A stretch of 64,000 bases of DNA, from contig HF993639.1 in assembly GCA_000433915.1 (NCBI GenBank), positions 61,633 to 125,632 on the forward strand, written 5' to 3'. The stretch is from Clostridium sp. CAG:793 (GTDB lineage Bacteria; Bacillota; Clostridia; TANB77; CAG-508). This document shows positions 1 through 58,144 of this stretch, piece after piece. The notes below the pieces were generated by a model. The model was not told where the DNA came from. It worked only from the letters and a program-made list of their open reading frames with translations, and searched no databases. A program made the position numbers and the translations under genes. Numbering within the stretch: position 1 is the stretch's first letter; each line of letters opens with the position of its first letter.

Positions 1-189
1 TCAGTTAGCTTGGTTCAGGCAAGTGTTATAAACTTAGCTATTCACTATATGGAGTTTGGAAGCAATGTCATGATCCTTACAAGCAGTATTCATTTGAAGA
101 AACTCGTGAACTCGCAATGTGATTACAAGCTTCCGCCTAAAGACCGTTTAATTATTCCATGTACGTATATCCCTCCTAGTGACAAATAA
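1..189 (+). CDS. 3' end of an unknown gene (partial, enters from the left edge)
   Basis: Frame 1 is open for 62 codons from position 1 to TAA at 187-189. Moderately GC-rich relative to the backbone. No recognisable motif. Confidence 0.3.
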   Translation, partial: SVSLVQASVINLAIHYMEFGSNVMILTSSIHLKKLVNSQCDYKLPPKDRLIIPCTYIPPSDK

Positions 190-326: not shown

Positions 327-355
327 TTGTAAATCGTTCAAAATGATGATATAAT
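327..355 (+). promoter_or_regulatory. Sigma-A type promoter for the PhoH-like gene
   Basis: TTGTAA (327-332), a 17-nt spacer, TATAAT (350-355); AAGGAG SD about 10 nt before the ATG at 420. Confidence 0.5.
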
Positions 356-419
356 CAATTTAGCAAATACCCTATATTACTTGCGGATTCTTATTCGCAT
401 ACAAAGGAGTTGTCGTTTT

Positions 420-1802
420 ATGGCAAAGCAATTTGTTCTTCGCGCTGGTGCACTTCTTAGCCGTAAAAAAGCCTATTTGGCTTTTGGCGAAGCTGGTGAC
501 CATCTTGTCATTCCTATGGCAATCGTTGAAAAGCTCCACTATTTTGAAGGAGCTAAGCGGAATATGGCAGCTGAGGTAAGTGAATATATTAAATCTTGCC
601 CCAATGATGAGCTTCTTGGAAAAGGTTATGTTCAGAGCAATGGTACTATCCTTTCTGTTAAGTATGTCGAGGATATTTCTTCTGAAGTGAACCGCTTTAC
701 GGAGCTTTCTCTTCAAGATAAGCAGTGTCTCCAGATTTGCTTGAATCTTCAGAAAGAGTTTCCTGATGATGAGGTCATTCTTGTTTCTAAAAGTACTCCT
801 CTTCTGCTTAAGGCTGAAATCTTGAAGATCAAGTCTATGGATGCTCCTGATATGATTTATCCTTCGATTGATAGGCAGTATTCTGGAGTAACCAACTATA
901 CCATTAGTACAGAGAGTTTCAATGCTCTGATGACTTCTGGAAAAGTCTTTTTTCAAAATGACGATCCTAGCCATCTGTTGTATCCGAACGAGTTCTTAAT
1001 GGTTCATGATGAAAGCTATAATTCTGGTGTAAAGCTTGCAAGATTTGATGGAACCCATATTGTTGGGCTGAATTACCAGCTTAACAAGGATTATCATTCT
1101 AAGAACGCTGAGCAGAATTTCCTGACTGAGGCATTGTTTACACCTCCGGAAGTTGCTCCTCTGGTCATTGTCAAAGGTCCTGCTGGTACAGGCAAAACTT
1201 ATGTGACAGTCACAGCAGCTTTGGAGCTAACCAAATATGGCTCAGGAAATTACAGCCATGTTTATGACAGAATCATTATTGCTACTCCTACGGTAAGTGG
1301 TGGTAATGAGGAAATCGGTTTCCTCCCAGGTGACGTAAATCAGAAAGTTGGCCCCTATCTCGGCGGAATTTATGATAATATCATAAATTCTTTCGTACGA
1401 AAGAATCGCGAAAAAGCTGGGACTTATGGAGCTTCTATTGACCTTAATGCTGCACAGGACTGTTTCAATCAACTCATGGATGATGGCACTATATCTATCC
1501 AGCAGCTTGGTACCGTTGCCGGTCACTCGTTCGAGAACTCTATCATCATTGTCGATGAAGCCCAGAACGTTGATCCCAACTATTTCCTTGACATCGTGAC
1601 TCGAACTGGTGAAGGTTCTAAGCTGGTAGTCTTAGGTGATCCATCTCAGGTTAAATCACCCAAACTGGACAGCCGCATTAACGGCATCAACTACATGATG
1701 GAGTGCTGGAAAACAAGCCGCCTGGCATACCAGATTTCCATGAATGCAGACAAGGTTGTTCGTGGTTCTCTGTGCCAAGAAGCACTTAAGCTCATGAACT
1801 AA
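420..1802 (+). CDS. PhoH-family ATPase with a degenerate (catalytically dead) N-terminal PIN-like domain, on a GC-anomalous cassette
   Basis: Walker A GPAGTGKTYV, PhoH signature RIIIATPTVSGGNEEIGFLPGD, Walker B IIIVDEAQN, GSKLVVLGDPSQV. The N-terminus aligns to YlaK/PhoH2 PIN (FVLRAGALL for YVLDTNVLL; LVIPMAIVEKLH for VVIPxVVLEELD) with the catalytic acidic residues replaced. Visibly higher GC and GC-ending codons than the neighbours. Start moved to the ATG with an SD; the track ORF begins at 381. Confidence 0.8.
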   Translation: MAKQFVLRAGALLSRKKAYLAFGEAGDHLVIPMAIVEKLHYFEGAKRNMAAEVSEYIKSCPNDELLGKGYVQSNGTILSVKYVEDISSEVNRFTELSLQDKQCLQICLNLQKEFPDDEVILVSKSTPLLLKAEILKIKSMDAPDMIYPSIDRQYSGVTNYTISTESFNALMTSGKVFFQNDDPSHLLYPNEFLMVHDESYNSGVKLARFDGTHIVGLNYQLNKDYHSKNAEQNFLTEALFTPPEVAPLVIVKGPAGTGKTYVTVTAALELTKYGSGNYSHVYDRIIIATPTVSGGNEEIGFLPGDVNQKVGPYLGGIYDNIINSFVRKNREKAGTYGASIDLNAAQDCFNQLMDDGTISIQQLGTVAGHSFENSIIIVDEAQNVDPNYFLDIVTRTGEGSKLVVLGDPSQVKSPKLDSRINGINYMMECWKTSRLAYQISMNADKVVRGSLCQEALKLMN

Positions 1803-1835: not shown

Positions 1836-1870
1836 GCCCCTGGTCCATTACGGGCCAGGGGCCTTTTTTA
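1836..1870 (+). terminator. GC-rich intrinsic terminator of the PhoH-like cassette
   Basis: cccctggtcc-atta-cgggccagggg stem followed by tttttt; it overlaps the stop of the convergent flavoredoxin-like gene. Confidence 0.7.
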
Positions 1871-2446
1871 TCTTTTATTTTTATTCTTCTTTTTTTGTAC
1901 TGAAAATCCAAACTTTCCTATTTTTTTTCCTAATGCGTAATATCCTCCATTTGCATATGCCATTAGCTTACATTTTGATATATCAAAAGCACCTTTTTCA
2001 TCTATATATTGCTCATCTGCATCTATGCAAAGCACTTTTGCCATAAACATTGTATGGCTTCCTAAATCAACTATTTTTTCTACTTTACATTCTATTGATA
2101 CTGGGCTTTCTTTTATTAATGGACATTGCACCAAATTTGCTTTTTCCTTCGTTAGATTCATTTCTTTAAACTTATCCACATTTGCTCCACTTTTTACTCC
2201 GCACCAATCGGTTTTATATGCTAACTTTTCTGTTGTTAGATTAATAACAAATTCTTTACTATTTTTTATTATTTCATAAGAGTATCTGCTTTTTCTAACT
2301 GATATATACACCATTGCTGGCTCAGTATTCAAAATTCCTGTCCATGCAACAGTGATTATATTTGATTTTTCCATATCTCCGCAACTTACCATTACTGCTG
2401 GAATTGGATATTCAAAAGTTCCTGCTTTCCACATTACCTTACTCAT
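1868..2446 (-). CDS. Flavin reductase-like / flavoredoxin (FMN-binding split-barrel) protein
   Basis: 192 aa with typical flavin reductase-like domain composition. ATG preceded by an AGGAGGAAAAT SD. Native AT-rich codon usage. Confidence 0.6.
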   Translation of the reverse strand: MSKVMWKAGTFEYPIPAVMVSCGDMEKSNIITVAWTGILNTEPAMVYISVRKSRYSYEIIKNSKEFVINLTTEKLAYKTDWCGVKSGANVDKFKEMNLTKEKANLVQCPLIKESPVSIECKVEKIVDLGSHTMFMAKVLCIDADEQYIDEKGAFDISKCKLMAYANGGYYALGKKIGKFGFSVQKKKNKNKR

Positions 2447-4713: not shown

Positions 4714-5073
4714 ATGAAAGAGAAGTTTAAGATCACGGCTCTCGTTGTTCGGAAGAAGGAGGCTAATCAGCCTAAACCTTGTGAAGTGGTAATCTTCAGG
4801 AATGGGCACGATCCTGTCCTTTTCAACGCAACCGAGAAAGATGTTGGCGATGCAATCATCTGCGCTGGAAAGCTCCTTAGTGGAGGACTTAAAGCAATAG
4901 AGAATGACAAGTTCTCTGTGACGGACTTCATCGTCGAGATGCCTACCGGCTTTAACGTCTTACTTGGTGTTGGATCCGGTCGTGTTGTCCCCTTCATCGG
5001 AGAGTCTTGCAGAAGCTTTCCCGGTGCTCTTCTCTATGTAGGTTCCATCCTGCAAAACGGTTTGAGCAGCTAA
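4714..5073 (+). CDS. Hypothetical protein (119 aa) on a GC-anomalous single-gene cassette
   Basis: Strong SD GGAGG. Visibly ~45% GC with codons such as CTC, GGC, CGG and GTC that are rare in the neighbours. No recognisable motif. Confidence 0.55.
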   Translation: MKEKFKITALVVRKKEANQPKPCEVVIFRNGHDPVLFNATEKDVGDAIICAGKLLSGGLKAIENDKFSVTDFIVEMPTGFNVLLGVGSGRVVPFIGESCRSFPGALLYVGSILQNGLSS

Positions 5074-5303: not shown

Positions 5304-7538
5304 ATGGATTTCAAACAATGGGAAGGTTTTGATAGAGCTGGAGAATGGACTAAAGAAATTGATGTCCGTGGATTTATTCAAGCAAATTATACTCCTTATG
5401 ATGGAGATGAAAGTTTTTTAGTAGGTCCTACTGAAAAAAGCACTAAGTTATGGAACAAAATTCAAGCTCTTTATGAAGAAGAAAGAGAAAAAGGTGTATT
5501 AGATGTTGATACAAAAACACCTTCAAGCATTGATGCATATGCACCAGGTTATGTTGATCAAGATTTAGAAACTATTGTTGGTCTTCAAACAGATGCTCCA
5601 TTAAAAAGAGCTATTATGCCTAATGGAGGTATACGTATAGTTGAAAAATCATGTGAATCTTATGGTTATAAAGTTGACCCAGAAGTAGAATATATTTATC
5701 ATAATTTAAGAAAAACTCATAATGATGGAGTTTTCGAAGTATATACACCAGATATTAGAGCAGCTAGAAGTGCTCATTTATTAACAGGTTTACCTGATGG
5801 ATATGGACGTGGAAGAATTATTGGAGATTATAGGCGTGTAGCACTTTATGGTGTTGATGTTCTTATTTCAGAGAAAAAAGATGAATTAAATATTTTAGAT
5901 ACAGATGAATTTACTTCTGATATTGTTCGTGATAGAGAAGAAATATCTGATCAAATAGCTGCTTTAACAGCATTAAAATCTATGGCTGCTAAATATGGAT
6001 TTGATATTTCAGTTCCTGCAAAAGATGCTCATGAAGCTTTCCAATGGACATATTTTGCTTATCTTGGTGCTGTAAAAGATCAAAATGGTGCAGCAATGTC
6101 TATGGGAAGAGTTTCTACATTCTTAGATATTTATGTTGAAAGAGATTTAAAAAATGGTACACTAACTGAAGAAATAGCTCAAGAGCTTATGGATCAATTT
6201 GTATTAAAATTAAGAATGGTAAGATTCCTTCGTGCTCCAGAGTATAATGCATTATTTAGTGGTGATCCTGTTTGGGTAACAGAAAGTATTGGTGGTATGG
6301 GAGTTGATGGTAGAACTTTAGTTTCTAAGAATTCATTCAGACTTCTTCATACATTAGAAAATCTTGGACCTGCCCCAGAACCAAATATTACAGTTCTTTG
6401 GTCTAAGAATTTACCTATTGCATTTAAGAAATATTGTACAAAAATTTCAATAAAAACATCTTCTATTCAATATGAAAATGATGATTTAATGAGAGTTACA
6501 CTTGGTGATGATTATGGAATAGCTTGCTGTGTTTCTGCAATGAAGATTGGTAAGCAAATGCAATTCTTCGGTGCAAGAGCAAATTTAGCAAAAGCATTAC
6601 TTTATGCTATAAATGGTGGTGTTGATGAATTATCAGGAAAACAAGTAGCACCTAAATTTGAGCCAATCAAGGGTGATTATCTAGATTATAACGAAGTTAT
6701 GGAAAAATATGATGCAATGATGGATTATGTTGCTAAAATATATATTAAAGCTTTAAATGCTATTCATTATATGCATGATAAATATTCATATGAAGCTCTT
6801 GAAATGGCTTTACATGACAGAAAAATTTATAGAACTATGGCATGTGGAATTGCTGGATTTTCTGTTGCTTGTGATTCTCTTTCAGCAATCAAATATGCTA
6901 AAGTTAAGGTTATACGTAACGAACAAGGCTTAGCTGTTGATTATGAAATTGAAGGTGATTATCCTAAGTTTGGAAATGATGATGATAGAGTTGACGAAAT
7001 TGGAGTTAACCTCGTAAAAACATTTATGAAAAAATTAGAGAAACATCAAATTTATAGAGATGCTACCCCTACTCTATCTATTCTTACTATCACATCAAAT
7101 GTTGTTTATGGAAAAAATACTGGTGCTACTCCTGATGGAAGAAAGGCTGGTGCTCCATTTGCTCCTGGTGCAAATCCTCTTCATGGAAGAGATGTTGAAG
7201 GAAGTTTAGCTTCAATGAACTCAATAGCAAAATTACCTTATGAATATGCAGAAGATGGTATTTCTTATACATTTGCCATAACACCTGGAACCCTTGGTCA
7301 TGATGAAGATACTCAAGTTAATAATCTTGTAAGTATGCTTGATGGATATTTCATGCAAACAGGACATCATATAAATGTAAACGTTTTTGATAGAAGTTTA
7401 TTAGTTGATGCAATGAATCACCCTGAAAAATATCCAAATTTAACAATTCGTGTATCAGGATATGCTGTTAATTTTGTAAAATTAACTCGTGAACAACAAG
7501 AAGAAGTTATTGCAAGAACTATTCAAGAAAAAATATAA
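5304..7538 (+). CDS. pflB: Formate C-acetyltransferase (pyruvate formate-lyase)
   Basis: Glycine-radical motif RVSGYAV near the C-terminus; active-site [12 protein letters not shown]; about 744 aa. Confidence 0.92.
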
Positions 7539-58057: not shown

Positions 58058-58144
58058 GCAGATATGGCGGAACTGGTAGACGCACAGGACTTAAAATCCT
58101 GCGGTAGCGATACCGTCCCGGTTCGATTCCGGGTATCTGCACCA
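58058..58144 (+). tRNA. tRNA-Leu (anticodon UAA), class II with long variable arm, CCA encoded
   Basis: Acceptor stem GCAGATA/TATCTGC; anticodon stem-loop CAGGA-cuUAAaa-UCCUG; long variable arm CGGTAGCGATACCGTC; T-arm CCCGG-TTCGATT-CCGGG; 3' ACCA. Confidence 0.85.

What the first reader, a model, noticed from the sequence alone, without database searches (positions are those of the whole stretch)
420..1802. PhoH2/YlaK-like ATPase whose N-terminal PIN domain has lost its catalytic acidic residues
The C-terminal half is an intact PhoH ATPase (Walker A GPAGTGKT, Walker B IIIVDEAQN). The N-terminus clearly aligns to the PIN domain of PIN-PhoH fusion proteins, but the acidic residues are substituted: YVLDTNVLL becomes FVLRAGALL, VVLEELD becomes IVEKLH, and VSKD becomes VSKS. 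The metal-coordinating Asp and Glu are therefore gone. An ATPase retaining a nuclease-dead PIN scaffold suggests a binding/regulatory rather than nucleolytic role. It sits on a foreign-composition cassette with its own consensus promoter.
Basis: partly seen in the sequence, partly recalled or inferred. Interest (0 to 1): 0.6.

Follow-up and report, generated by a model that had tools for sequence, protein, structure and literature searches.

The report
PhoH2-like ATPase with dead PIN domain
This gut Clostridium gene encodes an RNA-helicase-type ATPase whose attached nuclease (PIN) domain has lost three of its four catalytic residues, and the same loss is shared and kept under selection by a whole lineage of uncultured gut Clostridia, so the domain has probably been repurposed and is not decaying.

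Summary
ORF 420-1802 (+) encodes a 460-aa PIN_4 + PhoH fusion, identical to CCY99595.1 of Clostridium sp. CAG:793. Against canonical PhoH2, three of the four PIN acidic residues are replaced (D->R8, E->K38, D->S125).

This is not a one-off. About 55 clusters at 50% identity, and 26 GTDB species of uncultured gut Clostridia, share the D1->R and D4->N/S pattern. A tree built from the PhoH domain alone recovers them as one group. Their PIN region has dN/dS of about 0.05-0.18, so it is under purifying selection.

The ATPase is not fully "intact". Walker A, Walker B and motif III are kept, but the near-invariant RGR motif before Walker B is AGH in the query's sub-lineage.

The gene is monocistronic, with a near-consensus promoter and a strong terminator. 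It has no antitoxin-like or otherwise conserved partner. Its high GC is real, but 24 other species show the same offset, so recent foreign origin is not established.

Most likely it is a non-nucleolytic, ATP-driven RNA-binding or remodelling protein. The verdict is a new variant of a known kind, of moderate interest.

The parts
1..189 (+). 3' end of an upstream 228-aa ORFan gene (same strand). It probably does not function with the PhoH2-like gene, but it shares the GC-elevated block.
   Evidence: One search gives the full gene at L001:9084-9770. One search found only its own 90% cluster among 5.8e9 proteins. There were no Pfam, PADLOC, PHROG or PDB hits and no profile similarity to PhoH2. Between two strains it shows 7 aa changes in 10 nt differences.
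327..355 (+). Sigma-70/SigA-type promoter-like site, TTGTAA - 17 nt - TATAAT, with a TG extended -10.
   Evidence: 10 of 12 matches with TG present. This is a consensus match only. About as many such sites are expected in shuffled sequence.
403..409 (+). Ribosome-binding site AAAGGAG, 10 nt before the ATG.
   Evidence: Read directly from the sequence. Homologues start at the equivalent M-x-K-x-F-V-L-R, which supports ATG 420 over TTG 381.
420..1802 (+). CDS of the 460-aa PIN-like + PhoH ATPase fusion (PhoH2 architecture). It is identical to CCY99595.1 of Clostridium sp. CAG:793.
420..854 (+). Degenerate PIN domain (aa 1-145). Catalytic-site columns: R8 (441-443), E37/K38 (528-533), D100 (717-719), S125 (792-794).
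   Evidence: Pfam PIN_4, E 3.3e-11. Alignments with canonical PhoH2. AlphaFold model pLDDT above 90 over this region. Foldseek hits are Nmd4, 3ix7, 1o4w, SMG6 and VapC.
855..1139 (+). Middle beta-rich linker domain (aa 146-240), shared with all PhoH2 proteins.
   Evidence: Secondary structure in the models. It aligns with canonical PhoH2. It is the least conserved part of the protein.
1140..1799 (+). PhoH P-loop ATPase domain (aa 241-460). Walker A GPAGTGKT is at 1176-1199, Walker B IIIVDEAQN at 1542-1568, and motif III GDPSQ is kept. AGH at 1518-1526 replaces the conserved RGR.
   Evidence: Pfam PhoH 147 bits. PDB 3b85 by sequence, E 5e-19, and by fold, E 3.5e-11. Invariant columns K259, D379, E380, Q382, N383, R395, K401, G406, D407, Q410, N421 and R448 are all kept. 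RGR->xGH.
1836..1870 (+). Intrinsic terminator: an 11-bp, GC-rich stem followed by a T-run. It lies between this gene and the convergent flavin-reductase gene (1868-2446, minus strand).

Best explanation
The gene encodes a member of a distinct, monophyletic lineage of PhoH2-type proteins found in uncultured, low-GC gut Clostridia. In this lineage the PIN ribonuclease domain has become a pseudo-nuclease.

Shown:
- The PIN fold is kept.
- The first and fourth catalytic Asp are replaced lineage-wide, typically by Arg and Asn. In this protein they are R8 and S125, and the Glu is K38.
- The domain evolves under purifying selection.
- The P-loop ATPase core is conserved.

Inferred:
- Without the acidic cluster the site cannot hold the Mg2+/Mn2+ needed for PIN-type cleavage, so the protein no longer cuts RNA.
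- The former active-site groove, now neutral or basic, is kept as an RNA-binding and/or ring-assembly collar on a hexameric PhoH ATPase.
- The protein therefore acts as an ATP-dependent RNA binder or remodeller and does not degrade RNA itself, so it is not a helicase-RNase 'toxin' and needs no antitoxin.
- In the query's own sub-lineage the RGR arginine motif before Walker B is xGH. This probably corresponds to the 'RRB2' RNA-binding motif of PhoH2, so RNA gripping or unwinding is probably altered as well.

The closest functional precedent is eukaryotic Nmd4/SMG5. There, a catalytically dead PIN domain works with the SF1 helicase Upf1 and stimulates its ATPase activity and RNA binding.
For: Architecture and homology.

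Catalytic columns: R/K/D/S in the query. In 134 dead-type sequences, position 8 is R in 72%, position 125 is N in 83% and position 100 is D in 76%. In 100 canonical sequences the figures are D 100%, E 97%, D 95% and D 100%.

Monophyly: a neighbour-joining tree from the PhoH domain alone groups all 30 dead-type sequences with no canonical sequence inside. In the ranked representative hits the pattern switches abruptly from dead-type to DEDD.

Purifying selection on the PIN region: omega is 0.05-0.18 in unsaturated species pairs. Within the species there are 15 synonymous and 7 nonsynonymous changes, with only 1 of the 7 in the PIN.

Fold: pLDDT 90.3 and 88.7. The top PDB matches for the N-terminal model are all PIN domains, and the best is Nmd4.

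ATPase core invariants are kept.

No partner: the gene has its own promoter and terminator. Three relatives in other genomes also stand alone next to housekeeping genes. No neighbour family is shared across 29 dead-type loci.

Literature:
- PhoH2 is described as a hexameric RNA helicase feeding a PIN RNase ring. Conserved arginines in the RRB1/RRB2 motifs are described as critical, and an R339A mutant is used as the helicase-dead control (PMC7390352).
- Nmd4's PIN lacks a catalytic Asp and stimulates Upf1 ATPase (PMC11463774).
Against: - No biochemical data exist for any member.
- D100, E37 and, in about 30% of the lineage, the catalytic Glu are retained, so a residual or altered catalytic site is not excluded.
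- RNA as the substrate is extrapolated from mycobacterial PhoH2.
- The mapping of RGR to RRB2/R339 is my inference from motif order and approximate numbering, not a verified alignment.
- The RGR-loss association with dead PINs (18/110 versus 1/45, p = 0.014) is not corrected for phylogeny.
- I could not inspect model coordinates to see where R8 points.
- I could not test whether these genomes also carry a canonical PhoH2.
Confidence: 0.55

Rival explanations
1. The PIN domain is kept purely as a structural or oligomerisation module with no nucleic-acid role. The protein is then an NTPase whose substrate or partner differs from that of PhoH2, for example a protein or ribosome-associated switch.
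For: Purifying selection only shows the domain is needed, not what for. The RGR->AGH change removes arginines thought to grip RNA (PMC7390352). The loci lie next to housekeeping and cell-envelope genes, with no informative operon.
Against: The replacements are directional. The first Asp becomes Arg in 72% of the lineage and the fourth becomes Asn in 83%. This fits a reshaped ligand-binding pocket better than a merely structural domain. All other PhoH motifs shared with RNA-active PhoH2 are kept.
Confidence: 0.2
2. The protein is still a nuclease. It would use either a re-arranged site built from E37, D100 and neighbouring residues, or a composite active site formed with another PIN protein in trans, as reported for SMG5-SMG6.
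For: D100 is retained in 76% of the lineage, with Glu in a further 10%, and an acidic residue at position 37 is common. A composite SMG5-SMG6 PIN site is described in PMC12923823 (abstract only read).
Against: Both the first and the fourth Asp, which are 100% conserved in canonical PhoH2, are gone. An Arg sits where a metal ligand should be. No PIN gene is a conserved neighbour. In established PIN biochemistry (general knowledge; the D1353A example for SMG6 is cited in PMC11463774), loss of a single catalytic Asp abolishes activity.
Confidence: 0.1
3. The gene is part of a recently acquired foreign two-gene cassette (228-aa ORFan plus dead-PIN ATPase), such as a defence or toxin-antitoxin-like module, as the first reader's 'foreign-composition cassette' implies.
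For: A GC-elevated block covers both genes. The two genes are more divergent between strains (98.3-98.5% nt identity) than the adjacent flavin reductase (99.8%). An insertion hot spot lies just upstream, with a Mob_Pre element in L005. There are weak PADLOC hits to helicase-type components.
Against: The PADLOC hits are generic P-loop/SF1 matches, with the best E-value at 7e-7 over about 60 residues. The ORFan has no homologue anywhere else and evolves almost neutrally. Relatives of the ATPase in other genomes have no such partner. No flanking repeats were found. The viral collection holds no close relative. The nearest non-conspecific homologue is 46% identical. The same GC excess is seen in 24 other species.
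Confidence: 0.1

Closest known systems
PhoH2 (PIN-PhoH fusion; M. tuberculosis Rv1095 / M. smegmatis PhoH2; B. subtilis YlaK; COG1875; NCBIfam NF053827)
   Same: Same three-part architecture and length. It aligns end to end at about 30% identity. The PIN_4 and PhoH Pfam domains are present, and Walker A, Walker B, motif III and the C-terminal Arg are conserved.
   Different: Three of the four PIN acidic residues are replaced and RGR is AGH. It scores 92.8 bits against the 680-bit equivalog cut-off. There is no co-transcribed small phoAT-like gene. It forms a separate clade.
Nmd4 / SMG5 (eukaryotic NMD factors with catalytically inactive PIN domains acting with the SF1 helicase Upf1)
   Same: A PIN fold with catalytic Asp loss is combined with an SF1-related ATPase. 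Nmd4 (7qhy, 8rdd) is the top structural match of the N-terminal model. The Nmd4 PIN stimulates Upf1 ATPase (PMC11463774). This is a 'works like' comparison.
   Different: There is no evidence of common descent beyond the shared PIN_4/SMG6-like family. In this protein the PIN is fused in cis to a single-RecA PhoH domain that is thought to form hexamers. It lacks the Nmd4 'arm'. It is bacterial.
VapC-type PIN toxins of type II toxin-antitoxin systems
   Same: PIN fold. VapC structures appear among the fold matches.
   Different: The acidic catalytic set is missing, there is no adjacent antitoxin gene, and the protein is much larger with a fused ATPase.
Short PhoH / YbeZ (stand-alone PhoH ATPase, PDB 3b85)
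   Same: The ATPase domain is the best sequence and fold match.
   Different: YbeZ-type proteins lack the PIN and middle domains. In the alignment to 3b85 the RGR motif is present in 3b85 but not in the query.

Membership tests
Pfam PhoH (PF02562) | Score above the gathering threshold over the whole domain | tested here: met
   147.1 bits against a cut-off of 27, covering profile positions 4-204 of 205.
Pfam PIN_4 (PF13638) | Score above the gathering threshold, with a PIN fold | tested here: met
   44.1 bits against a cut-off of 21.9, covering profile positions 8-130 of 132. The top Foldseek hits are all PIN domains.
PhoH2 RNA 5'-3' helicase/RNase (NCBIfam NF053827 equivalog) | Equivalog score cut-off | tested here: not met
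   92.8 bits against a cut-off of 680.
PhoH2 RNA 5'-3' helicase/RNase | N-terminal PIN plus middle domain plus C-terminal PhoH in one roughly 430-460-aa chain | tested here: met
PhoH2 RNA 5'-3' helicase/RNase | Four conserved acidic PIN residues (D, E, D, D) for metal-dependent RNA cleavage | tested here: not met
   The query has R8, K38, D100 and S125. Canonical sequences have D 100%, E 97%, D 95% and D 100%.
PhoH2 RNA 5'-3' helicase/RNase | Walker A, Walker B and motif III of the ATPase | tested here: met
   GPAGTGKT, VDEAQN and GDPSQ are present, and the invariant columns are kept.
PhoH2 RNA 5'-3' helicase/RNase | Conserved arginines of the RNA-binding motif just before Walker B (RGR; presumed RRB2) | tested here: not met
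   AGH at aa 367-369. RGR is present in 44 of 45 canonical sequences. Equating RGR with RRB2/R339 is an inference (PMC7390352).
PhoH2 as a type II toxin-antitoxin (mycobacterial model) | A short upstream co-transcribed phoAT antitoxin-like gene | tested here: not met
   The 230-nt gap upstream contains the gene's own promoter and no small ORF. The upstream gene is a 228-aa ORFan. No conserved neighbour was found across 29 loci, although that scan used ORFs of 70 aa or more.
PhoH2 RNA 5'-3' helicase/RNase | ATP-dependent RNA unwinding, RNase activity and hexamer formation | not testable with these tools
   Requires biochemistry.
Pseudo-nuclease PIN domains (SMG5, Nmd4, Utp23 type) | PIN fold retained, with one or more catalytic acidic residues replaced, under selection | tested here: met
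   This is a functional class, not a monophyletic family.
Known anti-phage defence systems (PADLOC) | A specific match to a defence-system protein model | tested here: not met
   Only short generic P-loop/helicase matches were found, with the best at E 7e-7 over about 60 aa. There was none for the neighbouring ORFan.

The most novel reading that the evidence does not exclude
Uncultured gut Clostridia carry a bacterial counterpart of the eukaryotic 'dead PIN + SF1-type helicase' partnership (Nmd4/SMG5-Upf1). In it, the PIN ring of PhoH2 has been converted from an RNase into an Arg/Asn-lined RNA-holding or ATPase-regulating collar. In the CAG:793 sub-lineage the RGR motif is also replaced by xGH, so the protein may have moved further, from a helicase to an ATP-dependent RNA clamp or switch. 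This would be the first described bacterial pseudo-nuclease PhoH2. It would also be a natural separation-of-function variant for working out what PhoH2 proteins do.
Probability: 0.3. Interest if true: 0.55.

Novelty: new variant of a known kind. Interest (0 to 1): 0.4.

Why it matters
PhoH2/YlaK proteins are widespread but poorly understood. The working model couples a helicase ring to a PIN RNase ring and treats the protein as a toxin.

A sizeable lineage has dispensed with the nuclease chemistry while keeping the domain under selection. That indicates the PIN domain has a second, non-catalytic job, such as RNA holding, ring assembly or ATPase control. It also provides natural separation-of-function variants for testing this.

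The lineage is a reminder that "PhoH family protein" annotations in gut MAGs hide functionally distinct groups. The Pfam and NCBI names make no distinction, and the NCBI record for this very protein says only "putative uncharacterized protein".

In the papers I could search, inactive members of PIN_4.COG1875 are noted only through the eukaryotic SMG5 example (PMC5499597). I found no description of bacterial dead-PIN PhoH2. The two main PhoH2 papers (Andrews & Arcus 2015 and 2019) were not readable, so absence of prior description is not proven.

Tried and rejected
- **Sequence search of PDB for the PIN region.** The N-terminal dead-PIN profile found nothing. No PhoH2 PIN domain has been solved, because 3b85 covers only the ATPase domain.
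- **The upstream 228-aa ORFan as a partner, antitoxin or second PIN.** By eye, 'ILIVDSSIL' looked PIN-like. hhalign against the PhoH2 alignment gave 0.1% probability. Pfam, PADLOC, PHROGs and PDB gave nothing. It is a species-restricted orphan. I rejected it as a demonstrable partner.
- **A conserved operon partner.** Clustering neighbours across 29 dead-type and 52 canonical loci showed only sub-lineage synteny.
- **Phage origin.** The viral collection gave only distant relatives, mostly short PhoH (27-39% identity over the best aligned segments), and no dead-PIN relatives. PHROG 2765 matches the full length, but it is the generic PhoH2 family.
- **Mobile-element boundaries.** No direct or inverted repeats flank the GC-rich block.
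- **Leader RNA or riboswitch.** Rfam found only a tRNA in the whole window.
- **The Andrews & Arcus 2019 Protein Science paper (PMC7096712).** I wanted it to verify motif and residue numbering, but it is not held.
- **The query species in the GTDB scan.** I therefore could not address whether a canonical PhoH2 co-occurs in the same genome.
Full report
**1. What is there**

The + strand carries one long ORF ending at 1802. Homologues begin at the equivalent of ATG 420 (M-A-K-Q-F-V-L-R), and an AAAGGAG ribosome-binding site lies 10 nt upstream. The protein is therefore 460 aa.

- Pfam finds a full-length PhoH domain (147 bits, aa 227-459) and a PIN_4 domain (44 bits, E 3.3e-11, aa 12-141).
- The NCBIfam PhoH2 equivalog aligns over the whole length but scores only 92.8 bits against a cut-off of 680.
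- The only solved relative by sequence is the PhoH ATPase 3b85.
- The exact protein is in NCBI as CCY99595.1, 'putative uncharacterized protein [Clostridium sp. CAG:793]'. It occurs on many human-gut metagenome contigs.

**2. The observation**

I aligned the query with 116 homologues from the 5.8-billion-protein search, 78 genes from GTDB species representatives and 150 representatives of 50% clusters.

Canonical PIN-PhoH proteins carry D, E, D, D at the four PIN catalytic columns: 100%, 97%, 95% and 100% of 100 sequences. The query has R8, K38, D100 and S125. Three of the four are lost.

The fold is intact.
- The full-length AlphaFold model has pLDDT 90.3, with values above 90 across the N-terminal domain.
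- A separate model of residues 1-228 has pLDDT 88.7.
- The best PDB fold matches of that model are all PIN domains: Nmd4 7qhy/8rdd, T. thermophilus 3ix7, AF0591 1o4w, SMG6 2hww, Rrp44 and VapC.

**3. It is a lineage, not an accident**

The closest non-conspecific homologue is only 46% identical. Nearly all of the first ~100 hits nevertheless share the degenerate pattern.

Among 134 dead-type sequences:
- Position 8 is Arg in 72%.
- Position 125 is Asn in 83%.
- Position 100 stays Asp in 76%, with Glu in a further 10%.
- The Glu column is variable: E 30%, N 23%, D 14%, K 13%.

I searched 1.84 billion 50%-identity representatives with a profile of the N-terminal 228 residues. This gave 3088 hits at E <= 1e-3. 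The top ~55 are mostly dead-type, after which DEDD sequences predominate.

A neighbour-joining tree built only from the C-terminal PhoH domain, and so independent of the PIN columns, recovers all 30 dead-type sequences as one clade with no canonical sequence inside.

In GTDB species representatives, the 26 dead-type loci all come from uncultured 'Clostridia bacterium', 'Clostridium sp.' and similar MAGs. They come largely from human or animal gut samples and include Clostridium sp. CAG:571, and their flanking GC is about 0.25-0.35. The canonical loci come from Lachnospiraceae, Oscillospiraceae, Negativicutes and others.

**4. The dead domain is under selection**

Nei-Gojobori estimates for unsaturated species pairs give omega of 0.045-0.18 for the PIN region. 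This is similar to the PhoH region at 0.025-0.27.

Two strains of the query species differ by 15 synonymous and 7 nonsynonymous codon changes. Only one of the seven (E52D) lies in the PIN region.

Directional replacement (Asp to Arg, Asp to Asn) plus purifying selection argues for a repurposed domain, not a decaying one.

**5. The ATPase half**

Walker A (GPAGTGKT), Walker B (VDEAQN), motif III (GDPSQ) and the other invariant columns (R395, K401, N421, R448) are all conserved.

The motif R-G-R, about 10 residues before Walker B, is AGH in the query. It is xGH in the whole sub-lineage formed by the query, P0002-P0005 and P0011. RGR is present in 44 of 45 canonical sequences, and in 3b85.

Deviations from RGR occur in 18 of 110 dead-type sequences against 1 of 45 canonical ones (Fisher p = 0.014). 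This test is not corrected for phylogeny and is only suggestive.

PMC7390352 describes two arginine-containing motifs, RRB1 and RRB2, located between Walker A and Walker B. It calls them critical for RNA recognition, and it uses an R339A mutant as the helicase-dead control. In canonical proteins of 436-440 aa, RGR sits at residues 346-352, so R339 of the mycobacterial protein probably lies in this motif. That mapping is my inference, not a verified alignment. The claim of 'an intact PhoH ATPase' is therefore only partly right.

**6. Context**

The gene has a near-consensus promoter-like site (TTGTAA-17-TGaTATAAT, 327-355) and a strong terminator (1836-1870). It converges on a flavin-reductase gene.

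Longer contigs show ordinary chromosomal surroundings: ValRS, GreA, L28 and a SpoIIID fragment upstream; a PBP, pflB/pflA and a Zn ABC transporter downstream.

The only same-strand upstream gene is a 228-aa orphan.
- It has no homologue outside its own species.
- It has no family, defence, phage or PDB match.
- It has no profile similarity to PhoH2.
- It shows almost neutral divergence between strains.

Three relatives in other genomes also stand alone, divergent from mecA-radC-mreBCD or from ribosomal-protein genes. Across 29 dead-type loci no neighbour family is conserved. There is no phoAT-like small gene. A toxin-antitoxin or defence-cassette reading is therefore poorly supported.

**7. 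Composition**

The gene is the clear outlier among the 29 long ORFs of the window. Its GC is 0.42 and GC3 0.39, against 0.25-0.33 and 0.10-0.25 for the others.

Dead-type genes exceed their flanks by 3-18 GC points in every one of 24 species (mean +7.5). Canonical genes exceed theirs by +2.4 on average.

No close donor exists in the databases, and no repeats flank the block. I cannot explain the pattern. It does not by itself show recent foreign origin.

**8. Mechanism**

Shown: the fold, the residue replacements, selection, conservation of the ATPase core and the absence of a partner gene.

Inferred: PIN nucleases need their acidic cluster to bind the catalytic metal. Loss of a single Asp inactivates SMG6 (cited in PMC11463774). 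With Arg, Lys and Ser in three of the four positions, this site should not cleave.

The published PhoH2 model has a hexameric helicase ring threading RNA into a PIN ring (PMC7390352). In that frame the dead ring would hold or guide RNA, or stabilise or regulate the ATPase, without cutting.

The Nmd4-Upf1 pair is a direct precedent for a dead PIN enhancing the ATPase and RNA affinity of an SF1-type enzyme (PMC11463774).

I put about 0.55 on this non-nucleolytic RNA-binding or remodelling reading. The rivals are:
- A purely structural PIN with a different substrate (0.2).
- Residual or composite nuclease activity (0.1).
- A foreign defence or TA-like cassette (0.1).

**9. Novelty**

The PIN superfamily survey lists PIN_4.COG1875 as having '3-4' active-site residues with active and inactive members, but its only example is eukaryotic SMG5 (PMC5499597). 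The PhoH2 literature I could search treats the PIN as an RNase (PMC7390352, PMC7824862). I found no description of a bacterial dead-PIN PhoH2 clade, though the two main PhoH2 papers were not readable.

It is best classed as a new variant of a known kind. It would interest people working on PhoH2, PIN domains and pseudo-enzymes, and is not a major surprise.

Noticed in passing
window 1-189 (full gene at L001:9084-9770): A 228-aa orphan gene lies on the same strand just upstream, inside the same GC-elevated block. It has no homologue outside this species among 5.8e9 proteins and no family, PDB, defence or phage hit. Two strains differ by 7 aa changes in 10 nt differences, which is near-neutral or diversifying evolution.
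   Followed up: partly
window 420-1802 and loci L014-L062: Dead-PIN PhoH2 genes are GC-richer than their flanks in all 24 species examined (mean +7.5 points, up to +17.6). Canonical PhoH2 genes average +2.4. In the window, the gene's GC3 is 0.39 against 0.10-0.25 for the other long ORFs. This is unexplained and could reflect codon-usage-based regulation or repeated transfer.
   Followed up: partly
window 4714-5073 (+): A 119-aa ORF with no Pfam hit on record sits in a second local GC spike (0.43) immediately upstream of the pyruvate formate-lyase gene (5304-7538).
   Followed up: no
L001:8146-8250, L005:6220-7467, L008:7869-8357 (upstream of the window): A 34-aa N-terminal fragment of SpoIIID marks a variable spot. 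One strain carries a Mob_Pre-containing insertion there and another carries an extra 162-aa ORF. This suggests an insertion hot spot about 2 kb upstream of the gene.
   Followed up: no
L001:8419-8514: Two tandem 48-nt repeats (81% identical) lie in the intergenic region between the SpoIIID fragment and the zf_Tbcl gene.
   Followed up: no
window 1518-1526 (aa 367-369): The PhoH RGR motif before Walker B is AGH here and xGH throughout the query's sub-lineage. The second Arg also varies (A/Q/G/M/S) in other dead-PIN members but in almost no canonical PhoH2.
   Followed up: yes
window 58058-58144 (+): A tRNA-Leu (anticodon UAA) is the only Rfam/ARAGORN RNA gene in the 64-kb window.
   Followed up: no
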